Source: Sphaerodactylus townsendi | Taxonomy: Eukaryota | Direction: 5' to 3' | Assembly: GCF_021028975.2 (NCBI RefSeq) | Contig: NC_059425.1 | Location: 84,878,001-84,942,000, forward strand | Length of the DNA: 64,000 nucleotides | Shown: in pieces, positions 311 to 36,600 of the stretch | How positions within the stretch are numbered: position 1 is the stretch's first letter | Layout of the letters: each line of letters begins with the position of its first letter | Position numbers and translations under genes: made by a program | The notes under the pieces: model-generated | Seen by the model: only the letters and a program-made list of their open reading frames with translations | Database searches by the model: none | Told to the model about the DNA's origin: nothing

Positions 311-1017
311 TTACTTGGCTACTTGAAAAATTCTAGTGTTCAACTCATTACAAAGGTTAAAAAAATCCTTTCCTAGCCAATTTCATTGCAGTTTCATTAC
401 AAGTTTGCTTCAGAACCTAATTCCTACTTTCCTGTCCATGCATATGAAATTAGGAACTGAGGAAGAAGACATTTCATGGTGAAGGATACAGACAGCAAAT
501 GAGAGGTAGATCCAAACCGAAATGTACCCCTAAATACATTGTGATTAGAAAAGATGATACTTCTACTGTAGGAGTGGGGCATCTTGTGTGGGTGTGATCT
601 CGACCAATTGCAGAGAGGCAGGAAATGATGAAATTCTTCCATGTACTTCCTGTGAGGTCTTGGGGTCACCTTCAGTATTTTCCTGCCTCTGCAGAGAGCA
701 GACGCGTTTTTTGGCTCTGGCAAAAAACCCTATTCGTAGTCTGTTTGTGTCAGTCTGTGTTTGTCTGAAGTCCTTAGAGGGGTGAGTAAGCGCGATCCGG
801 CTTGGGGAAGAGTAGTCTAGCCGCAGTTAAAAGCAACCGCCTTCTCCTCTCTGATGGGGGAGCCCCCCCCGTTGGCAAAGAGGAACTTTTCAAGTTTAAT
901 TATGGACGCAAGGTCCTTTTCGCCTGAACGCGAAACCTTCGCTGGCTCTGCGGCGGAGCGCACACGCTCCGCAAAGACAGGCGGCCATAAGGAAGGGGGG
1001 GGGGAAACGCCACTCAA

Positions 1018-4531: not shown

Positions 4532-5207
4532 CAGCCAAAAGCAGGTCGACGGTCAACATCTACAACTGCTCATGGAAGGTCTACGTCAGGTGGTGCCATC
4601 GCAAACGGCTTGACCCCACGGAACCATCCATCACCGTTATCTTGGAATTCCTGCAACAGGGCTACTCAATGGGACTCAAGTGTTCCACCTTGCGCAGACA
4701 ATTGGCAGCTCTTGCTACCGTTATCCCTTGTGTGGGCGACATCCACATCACCAGACATCCGGACGTTCTGAACTTCCTAAGAGGGGTAAAATTGTCCCAA
4801 CCTGCGGTGGTCCACAGGTTTCCCTCTTGGCGCCTGAACGCTGTCCTATCAGCACTCACTAGGCCCCCGTTCGAACCCATACAAACGGTACACATCAAAT
4901 GGGTAAGAATGAAAACGCTATTCTTAATTGCAATAACGTCGGCCAGAAGAGTGGCTGAACTTCGCGCCCTTTCAATAAACTCAAAATTCTGCGTGTTCCA
5001 TAAGGATAGGGTATGTCTTCGTACAGATCCAACTTTCATTCCGAAGGTTAACTCCCCTTTCCACGTGCGCCAGGAGATCGTTGTTCCCAACTTCATGCCG
5101 AACCCTTCTCATCCCAAAGAGAAATCGTGGCACACATTGGACGCGCGACGTGCCTTAAAAGCATACATAATAAGAACGGAGGAGTTCCGAAAATCAGAAA
5201 TTATGTT
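2650..5207 (+). CDS. DIRS tyrosine recombinase ORF (recognisable domain from about 4465; truncated by the gap)
   Basis: LFLIAITSARRVAEL (catalytic Arg box) and FIPKV. The N-terminal ~600 codons overlap pol in another frame. Confidence 0.88.
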
Positions 5208-5296: not shown

Positions 5297-5353
5297 AATT
5301 TGAAATTCTAGAAGTACATTAAGTGTTGATGTTGTAATTGTTTTTGATTACAG

Positions 5354-5424
5354 GTAAACAAGTCAGAACCAAACTCTCTCAAGCCTTTAATCACTGGCTG
5401 AATGTTCCTGAAGATAAACTTCAG
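5354..5424 (+). CDS. GGPS1: GGPS1 duplicate copy, exon 3 (71 nt)
   Basis: ttacag|GTAAACAAGTCAGAACC...CTTCAG|gtaatt, encoding (G)KQVRTKLSQAFNHWLNVPEDKLQ. Identical to the minus-strand exon 3. Confidence 0.92.
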
Positions 5425-5544
5425 GTAATTCATGATCTTCACTTTGTGTCTTTTTAATAGAATTTATATTCCTTTATAAATGTTTACATGAATATTGACG
5501 TGATGTTTACGTGAATATTGACTCTAACATTTTCTATATTAGTA

Positions 5545-6031
5545 CTGCTCAATAATTGGTGTTAACCTTTAAGGCTGTGAGCGGTCTTGGGCCTGCATAC
5601 CTACAGGACCGCCTCTCCCCGTAGTGCCCCATTAGATCTCTCCGGTCATTTGGAGGGAAACTTCCTGGAGATCCCTGGCCCGAAAGATGTCTGGCTACAA
5701 GGGCCAGGGCCTTCTCAGCCCTAGCCCCTACCTGGTGGAACAAGCTCCCCGGTGAATTCAGGGCCCTGCAGGACTTGAACAGAGCTTTTCCACCAGGCAT
5801 TTCCATCTAGCCAGCCAGCTGGCCTGACCAGTACTATCATTGGCCTCCCATGGGTGCAGTAAGTGGGGGTTGGGGGAGGGATTTTTCACCATCTATTATT
5901 GGTGTTTTAAGTACTGTACTGTTGGTTATTTTATTATTGTATTTGGATTCTGTATTGTTGCCGCCCTGGGCCCTGTTGGGGAGGGCGGCATATAATTAAA
6001 AATATAAATAAATAAATATAAATAAATAAAT
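5545..6031 (+). mobile_element. L2-type LINE 3' fragment with (TAAA)n tail
   Basis: Remnant peptide LVLTFKAVSGLGPAYLQDRLSP, followed by a 3' UTR and aataaataaa repeats. Confidence 0.7.
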
Positions 6032-6531
6032 ACAGAACCTTTATTCAGTATTTGATGCATATGCTAAGCAGTCTAAAGTACTACATAGCCAGTTGACACA
6101 GATCTGCACGTCAGAAGGTACACTAAAAGGATCACAAACTTAAACAGAATAAGGATAAAATTATTCATAGTAATTTACAAGCAATCTATGGTTGCTCATA
6201 GCAACTAGGAAATACCCAGCAACTTGATAAGAATTCTAGTCAGATAAAACTTGTAATACCAATACATCTGAATGACCCTGGTATTTATGAAGTAGGAGAC
6301 TAATTATGGAGTTCATTAACTAAGTATAAAAGCTGCATTATAGCAAGAAGGCAGATAGAAACCCAAATATTTCTTGTGATAGGATAGTTTTCAGATCTGG
6401 CATAAAGGATTGCTGAAGGCCGGAGGTTGAACCTGGAGAGCATAAAAGCTCCTCACGACTTGTGGAGAGCAAAGATGAGATAGGTAAGGAGCCACACGTG
6501 TAAATGCAGGCATTTGTAACAACTGTGCAAA

Positions 6532-6900
6532 TCAGGGGTGTAGCTAGGGAAAATGGAGCCCGGGGCAAAATCTGAGTTTTGCGCCCCCCCCATGGGCAGC
6601 CACCCTCCCCCCCATGACCAAAGGCCACCCTCCCGCACTACAACCAAAGAACGATTTTATGCACCAGCTCATCTCAAAGCCACCATCACATAGAACATGT
6701 CTTCACTCACAAATCTGAACACAGCAATGTATCATAGCACACAGCAGAGATTAAAATTTTGGACAACATTCTCAAAATGCTCTCAAAATATTTAATAACT
6801 GTTATAACACTTAAAAGTATTTCAAGTGTCATATGACTTAAAATGCTTTCAAAATGTTTTATTACTGCTGTTAATAACGTTTTATTACCCTCCACGTTCC
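6532..6900. mobile_element. Non-autonomous DNA-transposon-like repeat fragment
   Basis: Starts CAGGGGTGTAGCT with a tttgcgcccccc motif that recurs in related termini at about 12050, 26400 and 60530. Confidence 0.4.
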
Positions 6901-6907
6901 TTTGCAT

Positions 6908-9900
6908 TTAGAATAGAATCTTTATTGGCCAAGTGTGATTGGACACACAAGGAATTTGTCTCCGGTGCATATGCTCTCAGTGTACATAAAAGAAAATACA
7001 TTTGTCAAGAATCATAAGGTACAGCACTTAATGATTGTCATATAGGTCTAGTAAGCAATCAGGAAACAATCAATAGTAATAAAAACATAAAATGTAAAAT
7101 CATAAAATAAAATGAAATGTCAGCACAGGCTATAGTCATACAGTCATAATTGGGAGGAGATGGGTAATAGGAATGATGAAAAAAGTAGTGCAGTAATTAT
7201 ATAATAAATATATAATAAATAGTTTGACATTATCGAGGGAATTATTTGTTTAACAGAGTGATGGCATTTGGGAAAAAACTGTTCTTATGTCTAGTTGTCT
7301 TGGTGTGCAGTGCTCTGTAGCGACGTTTAGAGGGTAAGAGTTGAAACAGTTTATGTCCAGGATGCGAGGGGTCAGTAAATATTTTCACAGCCCTTTTTTT
7401 GACCCGTGCAGTATACAGGTCCTCAATGGAAGGCAGGTTAGCAGCAATTGTTTTTTCTGCAGTTCTGATTATTCTCTGAAGTCTGTGTCGATCTTGTTGG
7501 GTTGCAGAACCAAACCACACAGTTATAGAGGTGCAGATGACAGACTCAATGATTCCTCTGTAGAACTGTATCAGCAGCTCCTTGGGCAGTTTGAGCTTCC
7601 TGAGTTGGCGCAGAAAGAACATTCTTTGTTGTGCTTTTTTAATGACATTTTTGATATTAGGTGACCATTTTAGGTCATGAGATATGATGGAGCCTAGAAA
7701 TTTAAAGGTCTCTACTGTTGATACTGTGTTGTCTAGTATTGTGAGAGGAGGTAGGATGGGAGGGTTTCTCCTGAAATCTACCACCATTTCTACGGTTTTA
7801 AGTGTGTTCAGTTCTAGATTGTTCCAGTGGCACCACGAGGCTAGTTGTTCAACCTCCCGTCTGTATGCGGTTTCATCGTTGTCTCGAATGAGACCAATCA
7901 CTGTTGTATCATCTGCAAATTTCAGTATTTTAACAGATGGATCATTTGAGATGCAGTCATTGGTATACAGAGAGAAGAGAAGTGGTGAAAGTACACAGCC
8001 TTGGGGGGCCCCTGTGCTGTTTACCGGAGTGTCACGTTAAATTTTCCTAACTTCATCTGCTGAACCTATCTCATTGGGAAGCTTGTGATCCACGTACAAA
8101 TATGCTCAGGTACTGCTTCGAGATTTAGGAGTTTGGTTAGAAGAATATCCGGTCTGGAAATGAAATTGTTAGATACTGAACTGAAGTCAACAAAGAAGAG
8201 GACCCTTGCAAATTCTTTGGCGATTCAAGATACCGCCAGGATATAGTGCAAAGTTACCGAAATATGTAACAACATGCTCCAATACCGATCTATTTGCCTG
8301 GAGCCATGCAAATTGCACCGAAAGTTAACAATTGGATCCGTGATGGTTTTCAAAATGAGACATTTGTCGCCTAATACCTTCAAAAGTTTTCGCAACCTAC
8401 AGATGAAAGAACAACTGGTGTGATAGATTCGGTTCCACCCGGTGGGAAGGCTGGGCGCAAAGACGATATTGGAGTGTTTGAAGCAGGAAGGGCATAGCAC
8501 ATCTCTAGTGATTTGTTCAAGATTTGGGTGAGGATAGAGTAGTGGACGCGCACAGACACTATGAGGCAAGAAAGGGTGTCCATCATGTCAGTTTCTGGTG
8601 CTTTTCCAGGCTTCACCAATGTGAAATAAGATCTTGCACTTACGCTGCTCTAGGGTCGCCAGAGTTCGTAAACCCATTGATAGAAGTGGTTCAGTTATAG
8701 GAGAGTTTAGCTATTGTTGGTGCATCCTGAGATGGAGGTTGTGGAGAAAGTGGGCTATAGATTGTTTTCAAACCCTACAGTAGAACACGTTACTGGTTAT
8801 CTGCGCCGAATTGCTTTGATTTCACTTCAGCTTGGGAAGGTGGTTTACTGTAACGGTGTTGATATTTTTTGAGAGTTTTCCACATGTGTTACTGTTTTAC
8901 GTTTAAGGTAGAAAACTAGATTTTTTAAGCTTTTCAGAGAGTAGTTTCTTTTTTGCTTTCCTCCTGAGTCCTCCTACCTGTTAATACATTTCTGGCCTGA
9001 TTGTACAGCGATTCTATCACACCCCTTTCTGTATGGGCACTGCTTCTTTGCGAGCGACGTAACTGCCAAGTTTAGAAAACTGTGAACCAAGGTTTGTTGT
9101 TACTATATACCGCATAGAAGTTCACTGGTTGAGTATACAAAGATGCTTCACCAGAAGCTGACATATGATGTTACAGTATCTGTGAGTTCATCCAAATCTG
9201 CAGAGGTGTAAATTTGCAGAAAATAATTCCAGTCTGTACAGTCAAAGGCAAGAGCCTGCAGCTTTAACTGCTTGCCTCTTCAGTCAAGTTCTCACTGATT
9301 TAGTTATTGGTTTTGTGGCTTTAAATCTTTTGTTTTGTAAAGCAGGTACAAAGGTGAATCATGCAATGATCAGAATGGCCTACAAAGCTGCTTTCAAATT
9401 GGTAAAGACCCGGGATATATGCATCGCTTCCAGTTAATTTGTATAGCAGTGGTACCGAATAAGATCATTCTTGCACTCTGGTGGGACAAGATTGACATGC
9501 TGAGAAGTATTTTGGTAGAGAATCTTCCCTTAAGTTTTGCTTTGTTTTAAATCTTTCTCCCCAAAATAATAACCAAGTGAATCAGAGGGTATGTTGGCTT
9601 CAGCCTCCATAATCTGAGTCGGTTAGAGGTTCTTAATGCCTTTTTTACAGATGCTTGTGGATGAATATAAACCAAAAAAAACCAGAACTGAATTTATCTC
9701 TCGAGGGGAATAAAAGAGGGTTTGCAATTAATAAGTAAGGACTCCAAATTTTCATCACATGGAATTTTTGAATTATTGTTATGTCTTGACACCAGCTTTT
9801 TTGTTGATGTATATACATAATCCTCCTCCTTTTTCTGTCCCTGATAATTCTGCAATCCTGTCTGAGCAGAAATATCTGAAACCCGGGTAATTGCACGCAT

Positions 9901-10470
9901 GCTATTTATCATCAATGCTCCTCCATTTAAGCCAGGTTTACAAAGATAAAAAGCATAGGGCAGATGCGTTGTAAAATCAGAATTGCATCTGTTTAAAAGA
10001 AGTATTTCATCTATCCTTACGTTGGCCAGAAGTGAGGCATAAAGTTGGTAAAGAAAAGATTGCTTGGAAGGGAGGCGGGGTTTTAAATTCCCCTTATTCC
10101 TTAGTCTATTTAAAATTCCCGCCCTTTTACCTCTTAGGTCTCTGCCATACCATGCTTGTTTTTGCCTTTGATCTCTGGCCCGTTGCCGGGAAATGGCTGC
10201 CTTCTGTGCTGAAATTTCCTCCATGGTTGTAAAGATCTGTTGTTGCCGGGAAATGGCTGCCTCCTGTGCTGAAATTTCCTCCGTGGTTGTAAAGACAGAT
10301 AGGGGTAAAGTTGCAGAGAGCCACTCCTTAAGGAAACGTTCCCTAATTCTTAGCAGATGGTCTCTGGAGTATGAAATTCGTTGTAAATTGCAGGAAATAG
10401 TAGAAAATGTAGAAGCCATTTGAGAGCATTCCACCGAGGCAGCCCTCGTCGGCGCCATCTTGGGTTGGAT
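6908..10470 (-). mobile_element. Rex1/Babar-like LINE, near full length (APE + RT), frameshifted in the middle
   Basis: RT C-terminus KFADDTTVIGLI...FFPNAITLLNK (7242-8020). 3' end is aataaagattctattcta. 5' end is near ccaagatggcgcc. Endonuclease remnants at about 9300-10050. Confidence 0.85.
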
Positions 10471-12329
10471 GAGAGACTGCTGCTGCTGCTGCTGCTGGCA
10501 GCTCAGCGGTCCCATTTCTCCCAAGCACTGCCAGAAATAATAGCCAATTTGGATTAATATCAAACCTGCCCAAATAAGCCACAGTACAAGCCAGCCTGGA
10601 TTTCTCTCTCTTCCTCTGAATGCCTATTTCACACTTGGACAGGAGGATGCTCTAGAAAGAGTAATTTCTGTATGCTCTATCAAACTTATTAGGATAAAGA
10701 TATATAGGCAAGATAAAGAATGATGCTAGGCACAGAGTTGGGTCCCACAGAACCCATATTTCACTTGGTAGAAAAATGTTCCAAAAATTTAAAAAATGGA
10801 TAAAATCCTAAAAATGCAATTTAGAACCCTTATTAACTAATTAAAAGTAACAGTTTTGATAGTTGTATGCTATCAAAATATGCCAAGACACTCCAGAATA
10901 CAACTCCACAGGTAGACCAGACTACATAGTACCATTCTAATCACAGCAACCCAAACATACATGCAGACAACAGAATTAATTCCAAGCACTTCAAAGATGT
11001 AATGGTTACTCTGATGGTTACAAGAAAACAATATATATTGTGTAGAGGACAGTACCAGTATTTGGCACACATGAATTGTTCACATTTTTGTAATACACAT
11101 AAAATATTATTTCAGTGCTGTATTGTTTATTATAGCAACCACCTTTTATATAAATTCAGAGAGGGTTGGATCCAAGCTTTCTGCAAACTATCTCAGTTCA
11201 CTTTTGTACAAAAGGTCTTTGCTATTTATTTCTCTTTGCAGTTTGGCCTCTGCTCCCCCCCTCCCCCCAGCCACTCCAGAATGTCAGAGGAATGCCAGGA
11301 ATAGAATGAGATGTGGCATGGGGGATTGCTTCCACAAGGAAAAATCAGCAGTAATCTCCTCTTACATGAGCTTTCCCTTTGCTCATATAATGGGTGCTCA
11401 AAGTGGGGGAGGATTTCTGCCATCTCCCCCTCTTCAAACAGGAAGTCGCCACAAGAGTGCTTCTGGGACTGAAGCATCCCACAAAGCACACAAAAGATTT
11501 TAGTTTTTACTTTCATGGAGGGAAGAAGGTCATCTTTTAAAACTTACCAGGGCAGTTTTGAGAAGGGCATGCTGCCTGCAAGATCTGTTCTCCCAGCTAG
11601 CTCCATCCCAGCCCTTTCGTCAGTATTCTAGCCCATCCCCTTCATGAGGCAAAACTGAAACTAAAAGGAGCCAATGAGAAGAAGGCTCATTTGCATACAG
11701 GCTCTGATGTCACTGGGGGACAGTTTGGAGGAAAAATCCTTTTGGGGGGCAGAAAGGGATGAGGGCAAATGATAAAAGAGAGATTTTCAGATGCCCTGAA
11801 GATACTGGGAAACTATAAAATGAAATTAGAACTCACCATAACTGGGAAGGTTCACTGCTAGTGGAGACTTAAATACCCAGCTGATCAAATTTTTAAAAAT
11901 ACGTAGAGAAAAGGACAGCCTGCCAGAGCAGGCAAGGAGGACAACGAAGGAGGACGGGGATGACGATGACGAGCAGGCAAGGATGATGACAATGGGAGAG
12001 GGAGGGCGCAATTGGAGGGGGCGGGGAGGAGGGAGGTGATCTACTGATTTTGCGCCCCCCACGTGACTCCCACGGAGTGCGCCCGGGTCATTTGTCCCCG
12101 GATGTCCCCATGGGAGCTTCGCCACTGGTGCAAATGCACAGCAGAGTACAAAATACATCTGTGTCAAACTGTTTTCCAAAAACAATTGAATATTTCAAGT
12201 TTTCAAATAGTGCTGTATAACTTTTGAAATTATTTGGAGATCAATGTGAAGGCTTCTACCTGCTGCTATCTGAGCAAGAAAACTTTTATTGCAGTTGAAC
12301 ATAAATCCATTTATGAGGTACAAGTGCCA

Positions 12330-13315
12330 CAACCCTTAGGTCAAGAACAGGCTAGCCACACATACTGTCAAGAGTGCTTTGTGCAAGAACGCTCCTGGTA
12401 TGGGTAGTTAACAGAACAAATTACAAAACACTGAGGTATAAATATTCAAGCCTCAGCTAGGTAGCTGCCACCAGTTCCTTTGGTCTACCTCACAGCCAGA
12501 AACCAAGGGACAATCTTCTGGCCCTCCTGCAACTAAAATCAAGAAAGTTACCCTTGCAAGGTAGCATACTTACAAGGCGAGTTTCAGAAAACAGTTATTT
12601 TGGTAGCTTTAGCCAATCCAGACCAAAGGATTGGGTTCAGATTGAAGCCTCTTGAATTCAAAAACACCACAAAATATAATTAGAGATTTATTAAAATTGT
12701 GCAAGGAATTTGAACAAAACAACAGTGAGGACTGAAAATAAAAACTCTAATTGAAAAGACTAACTACACAATTATAGGCATTGATTCTAATACAAGATGT
12801 TACCACAAAGTCTTTCTTACAATCCAGGTTTTTCTCAATCCAGTCCAGGATAAGTTCAGGTTTCCAGTCATTAGGACTCACCCACAAGACAGGCTCAAAA
12901 CAAGTACCCAGAATAAGGAACTTGGAACAAAATTATGATGAAGAATCTGAGCTATATTCCCAGAGACGTGAATTGGCGTGATCTTGGTTAGCCAATCAGG
13001 TGTATCGTTGATGATGTCAATTAACCATGGTGGCCTTTTGTTGGCCATGTGGCCAAGGGGTCAGAGGAATTTGATGTAACTGGACCCTCTGCAGCTAAGT
13101 CCAGCTCCCATCTACAAAGGCTGTTATCCCACTATGATCTCAGTCTGTTAGTTAGATAATGCATTTTCTCAGACCTGGTGTCCTTTGGATTAGATTACGG
13201 ATGAAGATGTACTCTTTGCACCTACCTCTCTTAACTAAGTTTCCACAAGTAAGTAACCTGCTGAGTTTCAACCAGGAAATTTTCCATGTTAGCTAAGCCA
13301 CAGCCTGGACCAGTG
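12330..13315 (-). mobile_element. Possible solo LTR
   Basis: Composition shift with CCAAT boxes and a minus-strand AATAAA at about 12686. Termini and TSD not established. Confidence 0.25.
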
Positions 13316-14621
13316 TTTGAAAGAAACAAGTACTGCATTAAGGACATCAGTTTCTTTGTACAGACACCTAAGAGATGTAACATTTTCAAAAATATTGAGG
13401 CCACAGAAGAAAATTGTGGGAAAGGACTGGAAAATTAAGATGTCTGCTGTACTTATCAAGCTTCAACTTGTTTGCTGCTTTAATAAAATGCATCTAACTT
13501 AGCATTTAAAAATACACTTTGCATATTTATGAGACTCATATAAGAATAAATGACTGATTTTTCTACAGCCAAATTGTAAATACAGCAACATTTTATAATA
13601 CCTGTTTTAGTTTTTGCTATGCGATAGGTCATAAAACATAAAAACCAAAAATAGAAAACATTAATTTGATAATGAGCAAAAGCGTCATTTCAACAAAGGC
13701 TGATTTAATCACAATAAGAGTAGCAACAATATGAATGTCAAGTAAATTTAATTGAAAACATTTGTTCCTTCAGTAATGTTATATATCATAGATGGTTAAG
13801 TAAATGAATGCCAGCAAACACATCAAGAGGTGCCAAGGGACACCACATGGGGCTTTGTGCTATAGCACAATAGTCCCCAACTTTTTTGAGCTTGCAGGCT
13901 CTTTTGCAATTCTAAGACAGGGTGGTGGGCGCAACTATGAAATGCCTGCCGCAGGAGGCACAGCTAACTGCAAATTGTTGGAGAGTGAGGTTATGTATAA
14001 CAGCAAGTCTTCCACATTTTGAGTAGAAGTTTGGCTTAACAAAATGCTTTTTAAATTAACATTTTTTAAGAAATATTTTTCTGCATATACACAGTTTACC
14101 TTCATTCATACAGTGAAGATCCTTGTTCTGTGGTGCCGGCTGATATCAACACTTGTTTTTTGAATTTGTATAACATATGGGAAGCCCTGCTAGGAAAGAT
14201 CAAATCTGGTCCCATCCACTTTCTAAAAACACTTGGTGGGCGCTAGGAAAGGTATTGGTTGGTACCACATTAGGACACCTGTGGCAGCACATATGATAAA
14301 TCTTTGTATTTAGAGCAGGTTGGTAGCAAGTACAGGTAAAGGCTAGCCACAAGGCCCTGACAATATGTATAGACCCAAAGTCTAATATGTACATGCCTCA
14401 ATGAAAGGAACTGTGAGAAGGATGAAGTGGCAAGCAGCCTGGGTCTGACACAGGTTGAAGCAGGTAAGAGACATCCAAAAAATAGCTCAGCTCTAACTAA
14501 AGGGCTTACTCTCACTTAACATTTTTTATTTGGAGAGCAAAATAAATAATCCCTGTCAAGTGTGAAATGTCTGTGTATAAAATTGAAATACTGAACTTAC
14601 TCTTGTTTTTTCTTCCTTTAG

Positions 14622-15383
14622 GTTATAATTGAAGTGACAGAAATGTTGCACAATGCTAGCTTACTTATAGATGACATAGAAGATAATTCAAAGCTTCGAC
14701 GAGGTTTTCCAGTGGCTCACAGTATCTATGGAATACCATCTGTAATAAATTGTGCAAATTTTGTGTATTTTCTTGGCTTGGAGAAGGTTTTAACACTTGA
14801 TCATACAGATGCTGTAGCTGTATTTACTCGCCAGCTGTTGGAGCTCCATAAAGGCCAAGGCCTGGATGTTTACTGGAGAGATACTTACACCTGTCCCACA
14901 GAAGCAGAATATAAAACCATGGTTCTGCAAAAGACAGGTGGCCTTTTTGGACTAGCTGTGGGCCTCATGCAGTTGTTCTCTAACTACAAAAAAGATTTAA
15001 AACCACTTCTTAACACCCTTGGGCTCCTCTTTCAAATTAGAGATGACTATGCAAACTTGTACTCCAAAGAATATAGTGAGAACAAAAGTTTTTGTGAAGA
15101 CTTAACCGAAGGGAAATTCTCATTCCCGACTATCCATGCCACACGGTCCAGGCCAGAAAGCACACAGGTGCAGAATATCCTGCGACAGAGGACTGAAAAT
15201 GTAGATATAAAAAAATACTGTGTACATTACCTTGAGAGTGTGGGTTCCTTTGAATATACACGAAAAACCTTAAAACAACTTGAGTCTGAAGCTTATAGAC
15301 AGATTGAATCTCTTGGGGGAAACCCGGAGCTTGTAGCATTAGTTGAACATTTAAGCAAAATGTTCAAGGAGAATGAAAACTGA
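14622..15383 (+). CDS. GGPS1: GGPS1 duplicate copy, exon 4 (codons 48-300), open frame
   Basis: Polypyrimidine tract and ttag acceptor. FARM DDIED..RRG, KT motif (QKTGG) and SARM QIRDDYAN are present; stop TGA. Confidence 0.93.
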   Translation, partial: VIIEVTEMLHNASLLIDDIEDNSKLRRGFPVAHSIYGIPSVINCANFVYFLGLEKVLTLDHTDAVAVFTRQLLELHKGQGLDVYWRDTYTCPTEAEYKTMVLQKTGGLFGLAVGLMQLFSNYKKDLKPLLNTLGLLFQIRDDYANLYSKEYSENKSFCEDLTEGKFSFPTIHATRSRPESTQVQNILRQRTENVDIKKYCVHYLESVGSFEYTRKTLKQLESEAYRQIESLGGNPELVALVEHLSKMFKENEN

Positions 15384-16213
15384 AACCAGTTGTCAGGCAC
15401 ATGACTGGAATCATTTTATAATTCCTTCCATTGATGGATAGGAACAGATCTCAAACATTTTAAGGGATAATGGTGTTTGGCTTCATCCTGGATTATCTTT
15501 GGCTTAATTTCAACTGCTCATTTAATACTGCATAAAGCTACAAATTTAAATATAGCTATCAAGTTTTACTGTAAAACTTCATTCTTAGTCCATTTCTTTT
15601 TATTGTGGATTTATTTTCATTCTGACCAAGACATGTAATCAACTTCTGAATACAAGACAGCATGGATGTTTCACCTTCAATGTTTTATTAAATTTGCATT
15701 TATCTAGTTCTGCTGTGTCCAAATACATAGTCCAGAATGTTCTCATTTCCTTTTCCATTCGCTTTGAGCCTTGGATTCATGTATGCAGTAAAACTAAAAT
15801 GATTATCAAGGTTGGGTGGGAAGAAGGTGAATTGATCCAGGGCACAAGCCCTAATGGTAGCAGACACCACCACCCCCCCACATAAAAATCTGATACGTGG
15901 TCTTGAATGCCTTAGCTTTGATGCAGGGGTTCCATGGAGCGGGGGAGAGTTTGCTGTTTTTCTCCCTATCTATAGCTTGCTGAAAAGAACTCTGGAACTT
16001 TAACTGGCCCCTCCACAATGATTTTAGGGAGCATGGGGGGATTGACGGAAAGCTGGTAATTTGGAGCCTTTCTTACACAGTATGATCTCTGCACACACGC
16101 CCAGGATAAAAGACAGGCTAGAAAGATGTGGAAATCGATTGGGGGGGGGGGGGTGTTTCAAATATGTTTCAAGCTAATGGTTATCTCATTGCAGTGAAAC
16201 TATACTGCAGTAA

Positions 16214-16416
16214 CTGGTTCTGGTGGGTTTACTGGCTGTGGTCTGGTGAATTTTGTTCCTAACGTTTCGCCTGCATCTGTGGCTGGCATCTTCAGAGGTG
16301 TATCACAGAGAAAAGTCTGTTTCACACTGTGTCTAAGTGAGAAGGGAAAGTTTAATGTGGTATATTGTCCATGTCTCAGGGTGGGGAACCAATCATTAAG
16401 TGTTTGGGTGGAACTT
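16214..16416 (-). mobile_element. Penelope-like element remnant
   Basis: The same motif family occurs at 21283, 52962 and 61349, and it carries a hammerhead-type core. Confidence 0.7.
16256..16300 (-). ncRNA. Minimal type I hammerhead ribozyme motif
   Basis: Minus strand reads cct-CTGAAGA-tgcc-agccacagatgca-ggc-GAAA-CG-TT-agg. This gives the CUGANGA and GAAA core, stem II gcc/ggc, a palindromic stem III (AACGTT) and stem I cct/agg. Confidence 0.72.
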
Positions 16417-17504
16417 GCAGTAAAATTATGCTGCAGTAAAATTATCCTGAAACTTATTGGAGGTAAAGAATTTAGGACTTAAACATATTTCAGGATGGTT
16501 GATTTCCAGAATGTTTCCTTGAGTATTTGTAAGGCTGTCCCTCTTGGCTGAAGATAGCATGATTTTAGGGAGCATGGGGGGATTGACGGAAAGCCGGTAA
16601 TTTGGACCCCTTCTTACACAGTATGATCTCTGCACACATGCCCAGGATAAAAGGCAGGCTAGAAAGGTGTGGAAATCGATTGTGGGTTATTCAAATACTT
16701 TTCAAGCTAATGGTTATCTCATTGCAGTGAAACTATACTGCAGTAAAATTATCCTGAATCTTATTGGAGGTAAAGAATTCAGAACGTAGGCATCTTTCAG
16801 GCTGGATGAGTTCCAGAATGTTTCCTTGAGTATTTGTAAGGCTGTCCCTCTTGGCTGAAGATGGGAATTATAGGGCACAAAAATATTGGGGATGAGTAAG
16901 GTAAATACAGGCTGAGTTACACGGGATTTTCTGTGTAGCTGAAGTGTGGCTTTAAGCTTGGGTATAAAATGCCTTCTTGCTTTAGCTCAGTTTGGATTTT
17001 TTTATAATTTTTACAATTACTTTCAGGCATATAGAATAGTAGGTAAAGATCAGAAGCAACTTCACCCATCCCCTTCACCTGCTTGCCATTATCTAACAGA
17101 ACCTCTGGAACAGACTTGCCACCAGAAATTACTGCCAGTCCCACAAAATCCCTTGCCTGTCTTGTGCTTTAGTCTGTGAGCCTGAAGATATGGACCTGTT
17201 TGTCTTATTTGTGTGCATCACCCAGTATGTTTTTTTAAAAAGATAGGTCATGCAGGCAGTGGTGGGATTCAAATAATTTAACGACCGGTTTCCAGCCCTA
17301 ATGATCGTTTTAAGTATAAAAAAGATATACAGAAAGGTAGTTGATTACTTAAATAATACTTAATGCACATGTATCCTCCTGATTTTTGCACTGTCATACC
17401 AAAATCACCAGCACAGCACAATTCCAGCCATTAGCCACATGTCTGAACATAACAATCACACATCCCATGCTTCGTGGTGCCATAGTGGCACAAAAACCTG
17501 CTTG

Positions 17505-17670
17505 ACATAAGAAGAACATAAAAACAAGCCTGCTGGATCAGACCAGAGTCCATCTAGTCCAGCACTCTGCTACTCGCAGTGGCCCACCAGGTGCCTTTGG
17601 GAACTCACACGCAGGATGTGAAAGCAATGGCCTGCAGCAGCTGCTGCTGCTGAGCACCTGGTCTGCTAAG
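17505..17670 (-). mobile_element. CR1-type LINE 3' end
   Basis: acataagaagaacata...ctgctggatcagaccagagtccatctagtccagca, similar in reverse to 62550-62590. Confidence 0.55.
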
Positions 17671-18699
17671 GCCAGACAAACATGGATCCTTGTGGATCCT
17701 CATGATTTTTTCACTTGGGCACCCCCAAATCACCTGCACATCACACCTCATACCTCTAGACACATGTCTGAACACAATCCTGCATCCCATGCTCCGTGGG
17801 ACAAAAATGTGGTTAAAACACATGGATCTTCCTGATTTTTCCACTTGGTCACCCCAAAATCACCAGCACAACACAGCACAACACATATTTTAAAACTCTC
17901 TTATAACATAATCTAGTTTTATTGTTCTTATTTACGTATTATTTAAGTAATAAACTACCTTTCTGTATATCTTTTTTATACTTAAAACACTCATTAGAGC
18001 TGCAAACAGGTCATTAAATTATTTGAATCCCACCACTGGAAGTTTGGAACCGGTTGTTAAATTATTTGGATCCCACCACTGATCCTAATCCATCACTACA
18101 ATGGATTAAGATTTGTCTAATCTGGGTAAAATGTGAGCACACACATTACTGCTTACTAAGAATGCTTTATTACACAGTGGGAAGAGGCATTGCATTGAAT
18201 AGCAGAACTGCCATAACATAACTGAATAGCAGAACTGCCATAACATGGCAACCTGCAAATTACTGCAAAAATCCATTCTGCAGATTTGTACACAACAGTC
18301 AAGTGAGAATATTCCACAACAGATAAAAATTAATGGTTGAAAAAGCAGTCACCACTTTCTTGTTGCAATAAGTGGCTCCAGAAAAAAATATCTCCTTGCT
18401 ATAGTTCAGGATACTTGGGTCCTCTCCAACAAAAGATGATACTTGGACATCAATTTTTGACCACTGTGGAGTACCCATGCTGCTTTCATGATGGAAGGAT
18501 ACTTGGCTCCAAGCCTCCTAACATTTTGTGGAACCTCTCAACGTTTTGTGACCAAACAAGGCCCCATGTCAGCCATTCTGTGACTGGTCTTGCATCTCCC
18601 AGGGCAGCCATTTGCTGCAGCAACCTCTACCTGTCCTGTTCTCAAAGTGCCCACAGGTTCAAAAAGGTTGAGGAACTGCCCCTTGGATCCCCTTATGTG

Positions 18700-20030
18700 G
18701 CTGCATTTTTATTCAGACGCAACAGCTAAAGCTGAGCAGCACCTGCGTTGTGCTGTGTCTTCGTAACGAAGCATTATATGGAAATAGAAATTCGACACAG
18801 ACGTCACCTGGGGAACTTCTGCCTAGAAAAGCCGTTAGCCAGTCAAAGAGTAGCAATTTCAAAGGGAGACAGCTGGCTACGTACCCAGCGCCAGAAGAGC
18901 AAAAAATCCGAGTGGTATATGACAATACTGGGCTCTAAAAGGCATGTGCAAAAACAGTAGGAAGGAAACGGATCCCAGAGGGTGTTGCTGTGCGTCGCCG
19001 CTGTCACGACTGAAATGGACAGCGGGACACAAGACGCTCCAAAGTGACGGCAGGCTTCACAAAACCGGCCAGTCCGAGAGGCAAGGAAGCAACGAGTCGG
19101 TTTATTTTAAACACGGCGGAGAAATACGTTCAGGGAGCTAGCTGCTGCTGTATAAAAATAAACCTTTAAATATTATTTTAAAAAGATCACCCGTCATCTT
19201 ACGTTTAGTCAAGATTTTTGCACGCACGCCCGACAAAAACAAACCACTCACTCCTTTCTTCCCTGAAACTCTCCAGTCGAAATCCTCGAAAACGTTTTTG
19301 CCAAGGATGCCAAAGTCCGGAAAATTATAACCCATCACGCCGCACAAAGTGTTGCAAGACTGCAGGGAAGCGGAGGCATGGCCGTAGAGGCCAGCATAAG
19401 AAACCGACAACAACGTGGCTAAAGACGTGGGAAGCGACGGCGTAATACCCGCTCTCGATTAGCGGGAGGTGCTAAAACGACCTGCCCGGTTGCAGGGCGG
19501 GGCTCTACGATTATTATTCCCTTCTGCCAGTCCTTGGTCCCTCCCCTTATCCATCTCTCCGCATAGCCAAAGAAAGCGCGAGCTGTACGGGTACTCTCTC
19601 TCCCTAGCCGCAATTACCTCTGTTCCTGGGGCTGTGTCGCTCCCGTAGTCTTAATAATGACGTCACCTTCTATTGTTCTTGGGACTTCCACGCATGCGTT
19701 AGTTTGAGCACACCTACCTTCCTTCCTTTCCCAAGTGGGCGGGCTTTTAGAGCCACGTCACCTTTTCCGTGGACTATTTTCAATTGGCCTCGTCCAAACG
19801 TTCTGCCTTCCTCTTGGTGCACTTATTGTCACAATAGCTCTCTAGAAAGGAGATACTGCGGGCCGCAGAGGCTTACGGGTAGCAGGTTACAAAGGCGGAG
19901 GAAAAAATCCCAAACATTTTGGTGCAAACGGCCGGAGTTAAAGAGACTGGAGGGGAGACAGTAGAGTAGCTCACGCCCCCAAATTTCCGATTTTGTTTAG
20001 GTCAGATCGCGTTCTTTTGGCGTGTCATGA
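18700..20030. promoter_or_regulatory. CpG-rich promoter-like region in the palindrome spacer (candidate TBCE promoter/first exon)
   Basis: High CpG. GC box gggcgggg at about 19495, CRE TGACGTCA at 19658, NRF1-like CGCATGCG at 19691, CCAAT. Minus-strand donor GAG|GTAATT at about 19617. TBCE is suggested only from amniote synteny. Confidence 0.6.
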
Positions 20031-21282
20031 AGGCAGCTGTGATACTTTAGATAAAGCAAAACAGCTGACAACATTGGACAGCTTTTTCATGTATTTTTGG
20101 AAACTCAACACACTACAGGCTACTTCGAATTTTGACAGTAGCAAACAAATGGTTGGCCAATGCGTTGTGTAACATGTCTCAGTTTATTCCATTTAATGTC
20201 CCAGTTTATTCCATTATTTGATACTTAGATTATAGACTTATAACAGTAAGACACAACGGCAAACTAACTCTGAATATCTCGTACCCTAAATCCGCTACAA
20301 TTTCACAACCAAATAATAATTCAAAAAACTCTTGCCCACATAAGCTTTTGGACTACTTGTAGATCCTTTCTCAAAAAATGTTTAGTAGGTGGGTATGATA
20401 GTCTATGGAGTAGCATGCTCATCCCCAGAATCCGGATCATTTTCATAATCAATATAGGTAGGACTATTTTATTACATTTCATTTTGTCCTTCCATTTCTG
20501 CAGAGACTGCTTATGACAGGTGTAATATTTATCTCCCCCCACCCCCATAATCTAGTTTTGTGTACCTCTTTTTATTGTCTTATTTAAGTATTAAGTATTA
20601 TTTAAGTAATCAACTACCTTTCTGTATGTCTTTTTTTATACTTAAAACGATTATTAGGGCTGCAAACTGGTCATTAAATTATTTGAATCCCACCACTGGA
20701 AGTTCCAAACTGGTTGTTAAATTATTTGAATTCCACCATTGCCTGCATGTTCTTTCTTTTTTTAAAATCTACCTAATACATACTGGGTGATGCACACAAA
20801 TAAGACAAACAGGTCCATATCTTCAGGCTCACAGACTAAAGCACAAGACAGGCAAGGGATTTTGTGGGACAGGCAGTAATTTCTGGTGGCAAGTCTGTTC
20901 CAGAGGTTCTGGTAGATCATGGCAAACAGGTGGAGGGGATGAGTGAAGTTGCTTCTGATTTTTACCTACTATTCTAGATGCCTGAAAGTATTTGTCAAAA
21001 TTATAAAAAATGCAAACTGAGCTAAGGCAAAAAGGCATTTTATACCCAAGTTTAAAGCCACACTTCAGCTACACAGAAAATCCCGTGTAACTCAGCCTGT
21101 GTTTACCTTACTCAACCCCAGTATTTTTGTGCCCTATAATTCTTATCTTCAGCCAAGAGGGACAGCCTTACAAATACTCAAGGAAACATTCTGGAACTCA
21201 TCCAGCCTGAAAGATGCCTATGTTCTGAATGCTTTACCTCCAATAAGTTTCAGGATAATTTCACTGCAGCATAATTTTACTT

Positions 21283-21495
21283 TAAGTTCCACCCAAACAC
21301 TTAATGATTGGTTCCCCACCCTGAGACATGGACAATATACCACATTAAACTTTCCCTTCTCACTTAGACACAGTGTGAAACAGACTTTTCTCTGTGATAC
21401 ACCTCTGAAGATGCCAGCCACAGATGCAGGCGAAACATTACGAACAAAATTCACCAGACCACGGCCACACAGCCCGGTAAACCCACCAGAACTAG
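21283..21495 (+). mobile_element. Penelope-like remnant with a mutated hammerhead motif
   Basis: cctCTGAAGAtgcc...ggcGAAAcattacg at 21402-21442. Stems III and I are mutated relative to the left-arm copy. Confidence 0.7.
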
Positions 21496-22333
21496 TTACT
21501 GCAGTATAGTTTCACTGCAATGAGATAACCATTAGCTTGAAACATATTTGAAACACTAATCGATTTCCACATCTTTCTAGCCTGTCTTTTATCCTGGGCA
21601 TGTGTGCAGAGATCATACTGTGTAAGAAAGGCTCCAAATTACTGGCTTTCCATCAATCCCCTCATGCTCCCTAAAATCATTGTGGAGGGGCCAGTTAAAA
21701 TTCCAAAGTTCTTTTCAGCAAGCTATAGATAGGGAGAAAAACAGCAAACTCTCCCCCGCTCCATGGAACCCCTGCATCAAAGCTAAGGCATTCAAGACCA
21801 CGTATCAGATTTTTATGTGGGGTGGTGGTGGTGGTGGTTCTGGTTCTTGGTGTCTGCTACCATTAGGGCTTGTGCCCTGGATCAATTCACCTTCTTCCCA
21901 CCCAACCTTGATAATCATTTTGGTTTTACAGCATACATGAATCCAAGGCTCAAAGCGAATGGAAAAGGAAATGAGAACATTTTGGACTATGTATTTGGAC
22001 ACAGCAGAACTAGATAAATGCAAATTTAATAAAACATTGAAGGTGAAACTTCCATGCCGTCTTGTATTCAGAAATTGATTACATGTCTTGGTCAGAATGA
22101 AAATAAATCCACAATAAAAAGAAATGGACTAAGAATGAAGTTTTACAGTAAAACTTGATAGCTATATTTAAATTTGTAGCTTTATGCAGTATTAAATGAG
22201 CAGTTGAAATTAAGCCAAAGATAATCCAGGATGAAGCCAAACACCATTATCCCTTAAAATGTTTGAGATCTGTTCCTATCCATCAATGGAAGGAATTATA
22301 AAATGATTCCAGTCATGTGCCTGACAACTGGTT

Positions 22334-23095
22334 TCAGTTTTCATTCTCCTTGAACATTTTGCTTAAATGTTCAACTAATGCTACAAGCTCCGGGTTTCCC
22401 CCAAGAGATTCAATCTGTCTATAAGCTTCAGACTCAAGTTGTTTTAAGGTTTTTCGTGTATATTCAAAGGAACCCACACTCTCAAGGTAATGTACACAGT
22501 ATTTTTTTATATCTACATTTTCAGTCCTCTGTCGCAGGATATTCTGAACTTGTGTGCTTTCTGGCCTGGACCATATGGCATGGATAGTCGGGAATGAGAA
22601 TTTCCCTTCGGTTAAGTCTTCACAAAAACTTTTGTTCTCACTATATTCTTTGGAGTGCAAGTTTGCATAGTCATCTCTAATTTGAAAGAGGAGCCCAAGG
22701 GTGTTAAGAAGTGGTTTTAAATCTTTTTTGAAGTTAGAGAACAACTGCATGAGGCCCACAGCTAGTCCAAAAAGGCCACCTGTCTTTTGCAGAACCATGG
22801 TTTTATATTCTGCTTCTGTGGGGCAGGTGTAAGTATCTCTCCAGTAAATATCCAGGCCTTGGCCTTTATGGAGCTCCAACAGCTGGCGAGTAAATACAGC
22901 TACAGCATCTGTATGATCAAGTGTTAAAACCTTCTCCAAGCCAAGAAAATACACAAAATTTGCACAATTTATTACAGATGGTATTCCATAGATACTGTGA
23001 GCCACTGGAAAACCTCGTCGAAGCTTTGAATTATCTTCTATGTCATCTATAAGTAAGCTAGCATTGTGCAACATTTCTGTCACTTCAATTATAAC
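22334..23095 (-). CDS. GGPS1: GGPS1 exon 4 (codons 48-300)
   Basis: DDIED and DDYAN motifs, canonical acceptor. Exon lengths 70+71+762 = 903 nt = 300 aa plus stop. Confidence 0.97.
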   Translation of the reverse strand, partial: VIIEVTEMLHNASLLIDDIEDNSKLRRGFPVAHSIYGIPSVINCANFVYFLGLEKVLTLDHTDAVAVFTRQLLELHKGQGLDIYWRDTYTCPTEAEYKTMVLQKTGGLFGLAVGLMQLFSNFKKDLKPLLNTLGLLFQIRDDYANLHSKEYSENKSFCEDLTEGKFSFPTIHAIWSRPESTQVQNILRQRTENVDIKKYCVHYLESVGSFEYTRKTLKQLESEAYRQIESLGGNPELVALVEHLSKMFKENEN

Positions 23096-23474
23096 CTAAA
23101 GGAAGAAAAAACAAGAGTAAGTTCAGTATTTCAATTTTATACACAGACATTTCACACTTGACAGAGGGATTATTTATTTTGCTCTCCAAATAAAAAATGT
23201 TAAGTGAGAGTAAAACCTTTAATTAGAGCTGAGCTATTTTGGGGATGTCTCTTACCTGCTTCAACCTGTATCAGACCCAGGCTGCTTGCCACTTAATACT
23301 TCAGACAGTTCCTTTCACTGAGGCATGTACATTTTAGACTTTGGGTCTATACATATTGTCAGGGCCTTGTGGCTAGCCTTTACTTTTACTTGAGGCGCTT
23401 TTATGCTCTCCAGGTTTAACCTTCTGCCTTCAGCAATACTTTATGCCAGATTTGAATACCTATCACAAGAAATA

Positions 23475-24264
23475 ACGTATACTCACATATAAGTCGAATT
23501 TTTCAGCACATTTTTTATGCTGAAAAAGCCCCCCTCGACTTATACGCGAGCAAGGTGTATTGTAAAAAACATTTTAGGGTTTTTACTTTGTCGGCCGCCA
23601 TGGGGCACAGTTTTTAGGCTAGCGGCACCAAAATTTCAGGGATTTTTCAAGAGACTCTCCTGATGATACCACCCAAGTTTGGTAAAGTTTGGTTCAGGGG
23701 TCCAAAGTTATGGACCCCCAAAGGAGGTGCCCCATCCCCCATTGTTTCCAATGGGAGCTAATAGTAGATGGGGCTACATTTTGAGGGTCCATAACTTTGG
23801 ACCCCTTGAACCAAACTTCACCAAACCTGGGTGGTATCATCAGGAGGGTCTCCTAAAGATACTTGGAAATGTTGGTACTGTTAACATAAACATTCCTCCC
23901 CTGATCAAAAATCCAGTTTTGAAGGATTTTAACTCTTGTGTTTTAGCTTGGTTGCTGATTGAGCCAAGGTTTTTGTACTTTTAAAGTTATTGTTGAGACC
24001 CTATTGTTTTTGTTGACCCTCTTTTCCACTTACAGAGCTAGTTTACTGTTTTTCTTTGAAATAAATATTCAAAAACATTTAACCTACTGATGCCTCAATT
24101 AATGTAATTTTATTGGTATCTATTTTTATTTTTGAAATTTACCAGTTGCTGCTGCATTTCCCACCCTCGATTTATATGCGAGTCAATACGTTTTCCCAGT
24201 TTTCTGTGGTAAAATTAAGTGCCTCTACTTATATGTGGGTCGACTTATACACAAGTATATACAG
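23475..24264. mobile_element. Tc1/mariner-type MITE present only in the right arm
   Basis: TIRs cgtatactcacatataagtcga / tcgacttatacacaagtatatac. The left arm shows the empty site at about 6367. There is an internal palindromic segment at about 23640-23850. Confidence 0.75.
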
Positions 24265-24599
24265 GTTTTTTGGGTTTCTATCTCCCTTGTTATAATGCAG
24301 CTTTTATACTTAGTTAATGAACTCCATAATTATTCTCTTACTTCATAAATATCAGGGTCATTCAGATGTATTGGTATTACAAGTTTTATCTGACTAGAAT
24401 TCTTATCAATTTGCTGGGTATTTCCTAGTTGGTCTGAGCAACCATAGATTGCTTGTAAATTACTATGAATAATTTTATCCTTATTCTGTTTAAGTTTGTG
24501 ATCCTTTTAGTGTACCTTCTGACATGCAGATCTGTGTCAACTGGCTATGTAGTACTTTAGACTGCTTAGCATATGCATCAAATACTTAATAAAGGTTCT

Positions 24600-25085
24600 G
24601 TATTTATTTATTTATATTTATTTATTTATATTTTTAATTATATGCCGCCCTCCCCAACAGGGCCCAGGGCGGCAACAATACAGAATCCAAATATAATAAT
24701 AAAATAACCAACAGTACAGTACTTAAAACACCAATAATAGATGGTGAAAAATCCCTCCCCCAACCCCCACTTACTGCACCCATGGGAGGCCAATGATAGT
24801 ACTGGTCAGGCCAGCTGGCTGGCTAGATGGAAATGCCTGGTGGAAAAGCTCTGTTCAAGTCCTGCAGGGCCCTGATTTCACCGGGGAGCTTGTTCCACCA
24901 GGTAGGGGCTAGGGCTGAGAAGGCCCTGGCCCTTGTAGCCAGACATCTTTCGGGCCAGGGATCTCCAGGAAGTTTCCCTCCAAATGACCGGAGAGATCTA
25001 ATGGGGCACTACGGGGAGAGGCGGTCCTGTAGGTATGCAGGCCCAAGACCGCTCACAGCCTTAAAGGTTAACACCAATTATTGAG
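24600..25085 (-). mobile_element. L2-type LINE 3' fragment (mirror of 5545-6031)
   Basis: Near-identical reverse complement of the left-arm copy. Confidence 0.7.
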
Positions 25086-25208
25086 CAGTACTAATACAGA
25101 AAATGTTAGAGTCAATATTCACGTAAACATCACGTCAATATTCATGTAAACATTTATAAAGGAATATAAATTCTATTAAAAAGACACAAAGTGAAGATCA
25201 TGAATTAC

Positions 25209-25279
25209 CTGAAGTTTATCTTCAGGAACATTCAGCCAGTGATTAAAGGCTTGAGAGAGTTTGGTTCTGACTTGTTTAC
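25209..25279 (-). CDS. GGPS1: GGPS1 exon 3 (71 nt)
   Basis: cag|GTAAACAAG...CTTCAG|gtaatt on the minus strand; phase fits exons 2 and 4. Confidence 0.96.
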
Positions 25280-25343
25280 CTGTAATTAAAAACAATTACA
25301 ACATCAACACTTAATGTACTTCTAGAATTTCAAATTTAACTGC

Positions 25344-27225: not shown

Positions 27226-27295
27226 CTGGTAGCTGAAGTAGGTAATGATATGGCTCCATCAGAATTCTGTTGCATGTTCCTTCTACTTGTTCCAT
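27226..27295 (-). CDS. GGPS1: GGPS1 exon 2 coding part (whole exon 27226-27328)
   Basis: MEQVEGTCNRILMEPYHYLLQLP(G), 70 nt, donor G|gtaat, acceptor ttttcctgaacag. Resembles the human N-terminus ...RILLEPYKYLLQLPG. Confidence 0.95.
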
Positions 27296-36527: not shown

Positions 36528-36600
36528 CTGCTGCCACTTCCACCGGTCCTTGCAATTGGCCCTGACCAAGCCGGCTCCACCAGTCTTCTGGGTCTGTGTC
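36528..36600 (-). other. GGPS1: Probable GGPS1 non-coding exon 1
   Basis: Minus-strand donor CAG|GTATGT just downstream of GC boxes; the start is approximate. Confidence 0.55.

What the first reader, a model, noticed from the sequence alone, without database searches (positions are those of the whole stretch)
5297..17360. Patchwork arm identity suggests arm-to-arm gene conversion protecting the exons
Seen, by manual comparison: 5297-6300 differs at about a dozen sites per kb, exon 3 is identical and exon 4 differs at about 8 of 762 nt. In contrast, 6340-6455, 14327-14520 and 16.9-17.3 kb are visibly more diverged with indels. Divergence is high next to the structural differences. Inference: an older duplication is being homogenised in tracts, as in sex-chromosome palindromes. 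The near-identical intronic L2 copy cannot be explained by coding selection.
Basis: partly seen in the sequence, partly recalled or inferred. Interest (0 to 1): 0.7.

Follow-up and report, generated by a model that had tools for sequence, protein, structure and literature searches.

The report
Inverted partial GGPS1 copy, patchily homogenised
In a gecko genome the back half of the GGPS1 gene sits beside an inverted copy of itself that matches it perfectly in some stretches and only about 93% in others, likely because the two copies have overwritten each other in patches, an ordinary process in duplicated DNA that here shows no sign of singling out the exons.

Summary
The patchwork is real. The arms (5297-17364 +, 25343-20590 -) differ at 96 of 3871 aligned sites, from 0% to 6.8% by tract (chi2 73, df 18; non-coding only p 7e-6). 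The right arm is the native GGPS1 (gecko; ARID4B-GGPS1-TBCE order). The left arm repeats exons 3-4 and the 3' UTR; exon 2 occurs once in the assembly. Both versions of the most diverged tract exist as contigs in three samples from two studies. A transposon in the right arm only (empty site in the left) has aged 2.3-3.1%, so the arms have likely been apart long enough to differ by 5-6%; the 0.7% intron tract beside it is far too similar. Divergence falls with distance from large indels. The best reading is non-allelic gene conversion blocked near large indels (0.6). 'Protecting the exons' is not supported: two thirds of the identical bases are non-coding, tract edges fall inside exon 4, and the left copy carries four derived amino-acid changes, including W222R. 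Sex linkage was untestable, and identity is below that of sex-chromosome palindromes. Contig depth (0.77 of spacer per copy) does not fully exclude two haplotypes assembled side by side. This is a known process.

The parts
5297..17364 (+). Left arm: inverted partial copy of GGPS1 (end of intron 2, exon 3, intron 3, exon 4, 3' UTR and downstream). Its outer end runs into N, so the true outer breakpoint is unknown. It likely lies in TBCE intron 1.
20590..25343 (-). Right arm: native GGPS1 3' half, collinear with the single exon 2; its outer end also runs into N, within 7 bases of the same intron-2 position
17365..20589 (.). Spacer, 3.2 kb; its core is single copy and holds a CpG island at about 19-20 kb (inferred TBCE promoter); repeats at 17365-18080
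5354..5424 (+). Exon 3 of the copy, identical to the native exon 3 (25279-25209), splice sites intact
14622..15383 (+). Exon 4 coding part of the copy, open frame; 8 differences, all within 14868-15170 (5 change an amino acid, 3 silent)
22334..23095 (-). Native exon 4 coding part
27226..27295 (-). GGPS1 exon 2 (start codon), present once in the assembly; the 3' edge is inferred from the reading frame
5297..6198 (+). Near-identical tract (6 of 902, 0.67%), mostly intron, including an old L2 fragment at 5571-5990 (nearest full-length other copies 79%)
6199..14505 (+). Most diverged tract (29 of 429 aligned sites, 6.8%) around the transposon site and the 7.9-kb left-only segment
14506..14867 (+). 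Run of 362 columns without a substitution (one 2-bp indel), starting in the intron and ending inside exon 4
15171..15642 (+). Identical run of 472 bases, starting inside exon 4 and ending in the 3' UTR
   Evidence: single contig over 15447-15642 in run X5
15992..17364 (+). Diverged inner tract (46 of 1054, 4.4%) with a left-only 307-bp tandem duplication at 16453-16759; both arm versions seen as contigs
6456..14326 (+). Left-only 7.9 kb: old sequence with no close copy found (6456-6532, 12128-14326) plus an element with an 8-bp target duplication (6533-12127) carrying a young LINE (about 6895-10620, 96-100% to other copies)
23475..24268 (-). Right-only 0.8-kb non-autonomous DNA transposon; empty TA site at 6368-6369 in the left arm; 3.1% (2.3% without CpG sites) from the majority of four other copies

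Best explanation
The window holds the native GGPS1 gene and an inverted copy of its exons 3-4 and 3' UTR 3.2 kb away, whose identity to the gene varies in blocks, likely because non-allelic gene conversion has overwritten tracts of a few hundred bases between two arms that are likely several percent old. Shown: the anatomy, the uneven divergence, and both versions of the inner tract as DNA in three samples. Inferred: the duplication predates the right-arm transposon (2.3-3.1% old), so unconverted sites should differ by about 5-6%, as the tracts beside the large indels do. Large indels likely block pairing, so conversion fades near them. Selection likely acts on the native copy only, rejecting damaging alleles from the copy, while conversion in the other direction is free; this refreshes parts of the copy without regard to exon borders.
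For: Heterogeneity p 1e-8 overall and 7e-6 in non-coding sites. Within one intron: 5 of 760 against 29 of 442, Fisher p 5e-9. The L2 there is old (79% to the best full-length hits among 40 scored candidates), so it is neutral sequence. Transposon in the right arm with an empty TA site in the left: 24 private differences in 782 sites; at 2% per branch 30 differences are expected in the 760-base tract and 5 are seen, p 2e-8. One-sided selection cannot give only 8 differences in exon 4 (21-28 expected at 4.5-6%, p at most 0.0013). Contigs of 16926-17126 with 0 differences and with exactly the 13 substitutions and 1 gap of the right arm stand side by side in X2 and X3; X5 (another study) has a contig with 16 differences where the arms differ at 17, beside a left-like one. 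Organism C (X6) has one contig over 16739-17230 at 1.57 times spacer depth, ending where the arms differ by a 10-bp indel, followed by a contig at 0.88 times; this hints at two near-identical copies in C exactly where this genome's arms differ at 21 sites. Excess of left G/C against right A/T, 52 against 23, p 0.001, fits GC-biased one-way conversion (inference). Blocking of conversion by large indels and transposons is stated in PMC3924837 (passages).
Against: Per-copy contig depth is 0.61-0.88 of the spacer (mean 0.77 in both X2 and X3), between the haplotype value 0.5 and the paralog value 1.0. No listed contig bridges the left arm to the spacer, which are joined through high-copy repeats (table cut). 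No outgroup sequence was obtained for the L2 tract or exon 4, so shared derived sites, the direct test of conversion, were not seen. The hint from C rests on one contig in one run; a single copy with uneven depth also fits. The transposon clock assumes insertion after duplication, not clean excision, and the 5' target copy is degenerate. Contigs drop isolated variants.
Confidence: 0.6

Rival explanations
1. False (heterotype) duplication: two diverged haplotypes of one locus, or X/Y-like alleles, were assembled side by side, and ordinary allelic recombination made the patchwork.
For: Both outer ends stop at N within 7 bases of the same position. Per-copy depth is under 1 and the two versions sum to 1.33-1.43 times the spacer, close to the 1.57 of C's single contig. 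X5's two versions sum to about its higher spacer depths (13.8 against 12.8-14.0, in a fragmented run).
Against: There is no N between the arms. All 10 per-copy estimates exceed 0.5. All three A/B samples laid carry both versions. The adjoining spacer shows 0 differences in 2537 and 2 in 2435 bases against 4-7% between arms. X2 shows a further variant at 17180 that is in neither arm. The spacer has no second version in the assembly.
Confidence: 0.15
2. The duplication is real, but the near-identical tracts, above all the outer one next to the N, were made identical by the assembler or by polishing with reads from the other arm.
For: The outer tract ends at the same place in both arms, as a collapsed graph node would. 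Nearby N runs of 88+1 and 100 look like gaps with polished edges (inference). The outer tract and exon 4 were not covered by any read test.
Against: Left-arm contigs match the assembly with 0 differences wherever shown (records 1, 2, 5, 9, 10, 12). X5, from another study, has a single contig over the identical 15447-15642 that ends one base before the first arm difference. Six differences in 888 bases exceed the allelic level seen in the spacer (p 1e-4 at 0.08%, 0.01 at 0.2%, 0.15 at 0.4%).
Confidence: 0.11
3. A young duplication (about 0.7% old) in which indel-linked mutagenesis raised divergence locally and selection kept the exons low.
For: Divergence rises near indels. Higher substitution rates near indels are reported (PMC3673634, passages).
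Against: The right-only transposon is 2.3-3.1% old. In 16739-17230 the arms differ as much from each other (21) as the left does from organism C (20), with derived states on both arms. The excess spreads over 200-400 bases or more; in the passages read the strongest effect was in the first 10-base window.
Confidence: 0.07
4. Both copies are working genes (the 5' part of the left copy being hidden or collapsed at the N), and conversion plus selection protects their exons.
For: The left copy keeps its splice sites and open frame. Its outer breakpoint is hidden. Exon 3 and 459 of 762 exon-4 coding bases lie in identical runs.
Against: Exon 2 and its surroundings are found once. I130V, I221T and W222R are derived in the left copy at sites invariant in the other 12 aligned proteins. 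dN/dS is about 0.45 (5 of 597 against 3 of 162), as expected if one copy is neutral. Two thirds of the identical bases are non-coding.
Confidence: 0.07

Closest known systems
Non-allelic (interlocus) gene conversion between neighbouring paralogs or gene-pseudogene pairs (review PMC3924837; e.g. primate red/green opsins)
   Same: Identical tracts of a few hundred bases, introns homogenised, divergence kept where large indels and transposons disrupt pairing, a short distance between copies
   Different: Here the second copy is inverted and apparently partial, and the direct cross-species test for the identical tracts is missing
Mammalian sex-chromosome palindromes with arm-to-arm conversion (PMC8981503)
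   Same: Inverted arms around a single-copy spacer, likely conversion, a possible GC bias
   Different: Shared arm about 4 kb at 97.5% with large indels, against more than 99% (median 37 kb and 99.95% for conserved primate X palindromes in the passages read); one arm lacks the start of the gene; no evidence of sex linkage
Heterotype false duplications in genome assemblies (PMC9516828)
   Same: An adjacent partial gene copy, runs of N nearby, depth per copy below the spacer's
   Different: No gap between the copies, depth above one half, both versions in three samples, divergence far above local diversity

Membership tests
Non-allelic gene conversion / concerted evolution | Identity between copies is significantly patchy, with long identical runs | tested here: met
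Non-allelic gene conversion / concerted evolution | Low divergence in neutral sequence, younger than the duplication | tested here: met
   conditional on the transposon having inserted after the duplication
Non-allelic gene conversion / concerted evolution | Paralogs within a species closer than orthologs between species in some tracts | tested here: inconclusive
   one high-depth contig in organism C; no outgroup for the identical tracts
Non-allelic gene conversion / concerted evolution | The two sequences are paralogs on one haplotype | tested here: inconclusive
   depth 0.77 per copy, both versions in three samples, junction not bridged
Sex-chromosome palindromes | Arm-to-arm identity above 99% | tested here: not met
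   97.5% over 3871 columns plus large indels; criterion
Sex-chromosome palindromes | Inverted arms around a unique spacer | tested here: met
   (as assembled)
Sex-chromosome palindromes | Located on a sex chromosome | not testable with these tools
   the sex of the samples is not given
Sex-chromosome palindromes | A whole gene copy in each arm (recalled as typical) | tested here: not met
   exon 2 found once in the assembly; the outer breakpoint is hidden by N
Heterotype false duplication | Half read depth on each copy | tested here: inconclusive
   0.61-0.88 of spacer depth from contig means
Heterotype false duplication | Gap between the two copies | tested here: not met
   no N between 5297 and 25343; a depth gap could not be tested
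Heterotype false duplication | Discordant linked or paired reads | not testable with these tools
   only contigs were available
GGPS1 (vertebrate geranylgeranyl diphosphate synthase) | Sequence identity and ARID4B-GGPS1-TBCE order | tested here: met
   96% to Paroedura picta GGPS1; RBB1NT exon to the right; TBCE exons to the left

The most novel reading that the evidence does not exclude
The left arm is a second, expressed GGPS1 kept across several gecko species. Its 303-bp island of 8 differences (I130V, Y169F, H194Y, I221T, W222R plus 3 silent) between two perfectly matching tracts is held against conversion by selection, as in opsin exon 5, while different lineages homogenise different tracts of a small palindrome wrapped around the TBCE promoter.
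Probability: 0.07. Interest if true: 0.6.

Novelty: new member of a known kind. Interest (0 to 1): 0.27.

Why it matters
If right, it is a compact example in a reptile of conversion fading near large indels, with a built-in transposon clock and close relatives for comparison. It also sets a likely damaged copy beside a housekeeping gene: a conversion or crossover in the wrong direction would move W222R into GGPS1 or flip the inferred TBCE promoter (inference). It does not show a new mechanism or exon-targeted repair. For annotation, the left copy should not be counted as a GGPS1 gene gain until long reads confirm it.

Tried and rejected
No RNA holder was listed for the stretch; this says nothing on expression. 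Of 11 listed runs 4 were laid (X2, X3, X5, X6), over 15400-20590 only. Exon 4, the 7.9-kb junction and the outer L2 tract have no read evidence. X2 may be the assembly's own sample. Low cover at 15400-16067 in X2, X3 and X6 is a hole in filtered contigs and was not used. A third GGPS1 copy was not found (2 matches among 5 candidates), nor a second exon-2 region or spacer. A young L2 copied between the arms was rejected: the nearest full-length copies are 79%. CpG decay was rejected as the cause of the patchwork: 0 of 29 differences in the most diverged tract are CpG-type. The CpG island 39-40 kb left of the window looks like a retrotransposon on reading (not tested by a family search), so it was set aside as the TBCE promoter. 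The young LINE cannot date the duplication, because it lies in sequence the right arm lacks. GENECONV was not run; a permutation of identical runs replaced it. Earlier scan notes: none. Paper searches: GGPS1+lizard+paralog gave 0 papers; GGPS1+duplication+gecko listed 15 of 861, none with GGPS1; gene conversion+inverted duplicat+squamate gave 1 unrelated paper. Supplements were not read; subscription journals are not covered.
Full report
What it is. Self-alignment shows an inverted duplication: left arm 5297-17364 (+) and right arm 25343-20590 (-), around a 3.2-kb spacer. Both arms hold exon 3 and exon 4 of GGPS1. The nearest named protein is Paroedura picta GGPS1 at 96%, so the organism is a gecko or close to one. 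The genome has two exon-4 matches and one exon 2, at 27295 on the minus strand, so the right arm is the native gene. An RBB1NT exon (ARID4B by position) lies to the right. The first two coding exons of TBCE lie 46-49 kb left of the window on the minus strand. The only CpG island between them that does not look like a repeat is in the spacer, so the left arm likely sits in TBCE intron 1 (inference). Both arms run into N at their outer ends, within 7 bases of the same intron-2 position; the outer breakpoint is unknown.

Observation. Overall 96 of 3871. The unevenness is significant (chi2 73, df 18; non-coding only p 7e-6; longest identical run 472, p 0.0004). A rough change-point fit gives seven blocks: 0.67%, 6.76%, 0%, 2.64%, 0%, 2.01%, 4.36%. 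Divergence falls with distance from the four large structural differences: 5.1, 4.5, 2.3, 1.3 and 0.8% (circular-shift p 0.013; post hoc, two clusters). CpG decay does not explain it.

Is the low or the high value the true age? The right arm has a 0.8-kb DNA transposon at a site where the left arm has a single TA. It differs from the majority of four other copies at 24 of 782 sites (3.1%; 2.3% without CpG). The four were the three best genome hits plus one neighbour, so the figure is if anything low. If it inserted after the duplication, neutral sites should differ by about 5-6%, which is what the tracts beside the indels show. The intron tract 5426-6185 has 5 differences where 30 or more are expected (p 2e-8). 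Its L2 fragment is old (79%), so it is not a fresh insertion and is unlikely to be constrained. Selection on the native copy alone predicts 21-28 differences in exon 4, and 8 are seen; selection on both copies predicts 7-10 silent changes, and 3 are seen (p 0.07-0.01). So the low tracts are likely younger than the duplication.

Is the copy real? Four of 11 listed runs, all contigs, were laid on 15400-20590 (its tables show 40 of 176 letter rows and 32 records of about 189,000). Over 16926-17126, X2 and X3 (two samples, organism A, one study) each have one contig identical to the left arm and one with the right arm's 13 substitutions and 1 gap. X5 (organism B, another study) has a right-like contig with 16 differences where the arms differ at 17, beside a left-like one, and a single contig over the identical 15447-15642. 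The left arm is therefore not read noise, and its left-only segment holds old sequence with no close copy elsewhere (67-79%). Against: per-copy depth is 0.61-0.88 of the spacer, mean 0.77 in both runs, neither 0.5 nor 1. The arm tract is more AT-rich (38% G+C) than the spacer (45%), which may lower depth (inference). No listed contig bridges the left arm to the spacer. The spacer differs from the assembly at only 0 and 2 sites in about 2.5 kb in X2 and X3, which makes 4-7% between two alleles unlikely, though contigs hide isolated variants. I put a real duplication at about 0.8.

The relative. Organism C (X6) has one contig over 16739-17230 with 20 differences and 1 gap from the left arm; the arms differ at 21 sites there. 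At the 11 arm-difference sites whose state is shown, C has the right allele at 5, the left at 5 and a third letter at 1. By arithmetic C is 22-30 differences from the right arm. The arms are thus about as far apart as either is from C. The contig's depth is 1.57 times C's spacer, while three other long C contigs are at 0.85-1.06. It ends at 17230, where the arms differ by a 10-bp indel, and the next contig is at 0.88. The simplest paralog reading is two near-identical copies in C, homogenised where this genome's are not. One contig in one run is a hint only; a single copy with uneven depth, or the haplotype reading, also fits.

Are exons protected? No sign of it. Of 1577 bases in identical runs of 150 or more, 1047 are non-coding, although coding bases are over-represented (530 of 833 coding against 1047 of 3038 non-coding columns), as one-sided selection and easier pairing would give. 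Both long runs end inside exon 4, and all 8 coding differences lie between them. Against 11 other vertebrate proteins the left copy is derived at I130V, H194Y, I221T and W222R, and the right copy at Y169F (numbering from the 300-residue protein P0010). I130, I221 and W222 are invariant in the other 12 rows. dN/dS is about 0.45. Left G/C against right A/T outnumbers the reverse 52 to 23 (p 0.001), which fits GC-biased conversion from gene to copy but has other explanations.

Mechanism. Shown: anatomy, patchwork, both versions in DNA. Inferred: age from the transposon; conversion; its blocking near large indels; selection on the native copy only. PMC3924837 (passages) states that conversion goes on until pairing is disrupted by substitutions, transposon insertions or large indels, and describes homogenised introns and a selected peak of divergence in opsin exon 5. 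PMC8981503 (passages) gives more than 99% identity for sex-chromosome palindromes, which this does not meet. PMC9516828 (passages) lists half depth, a gap between copies and discordant pairs for false duplications: inconclusive, not met and untestable here. PMC3673634 (passages) covers indel-linked mutation. Other papers were seen as search listings only. The labels L2, hAT-like, DIRS-like and Rex1-like are recalled; Pfam shows only reverse transcriptase, RNase H-like, ALKBH8_N and LAP2alpha matches. No paper on a lizard GGPS1 duplication turned up.

Verdict. A new member of a known kind; interest 0.27.

Noticed in passing
window 991-5207 (+): Retrotransposon with long open frames (536 aa LAP2alpha-like, 738 aa RT/RNase H, and a third frame running into the N); DIRS-like by recall. 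It abuts the left arm's outer end and may be tied to the breakpoint.
   Followed up: partly
window 17257-17364, 17932-18078, 20591-20738: Three copies of the same short element at the inner junction. The two that flank the spacer core are direct repeats at 90%, and the left-arm copy is inverted 570 bases from the spacer copy; they could have seeded the inverted duplication.
   Followed up: partly
window 34222-34876 and 35666-36333: Local direct duplication at 86% in the GGPS1 5' region; P0001's N-terminal extension matches 33597-33452 weakly.
   Followed up: no
window 36000-38630: CpG island likely shared by GGPS1 and ARID4B; an ATG-AAG-GT at about 38530 resembles the two-codon first coding exon of ARID4B (recalled).
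   Followed up: no
window 16453-16759: 307-bp tandem duplication in the left arm only, at about 90% identity to its neighbour; seen in X2 and X3 contigs, while C's contig does not continue into it.
   Followed up: partly
L009 100-6500: A 6.4-kb GC-rich element that reads like a reverse-transcriptase and recombinase retrotransposon, in the inferred TBCE intron 1.
   Followed up: no
window 17180: X2 has a contig with T here, as organism C does, while both assembled arms have G: a third version in that sample.
   Followed up: partly
window 25435-26330: GC-rich element with internal direct and inverted repeats (83-86%) right after the right arm's outer end.
   Followed up: no
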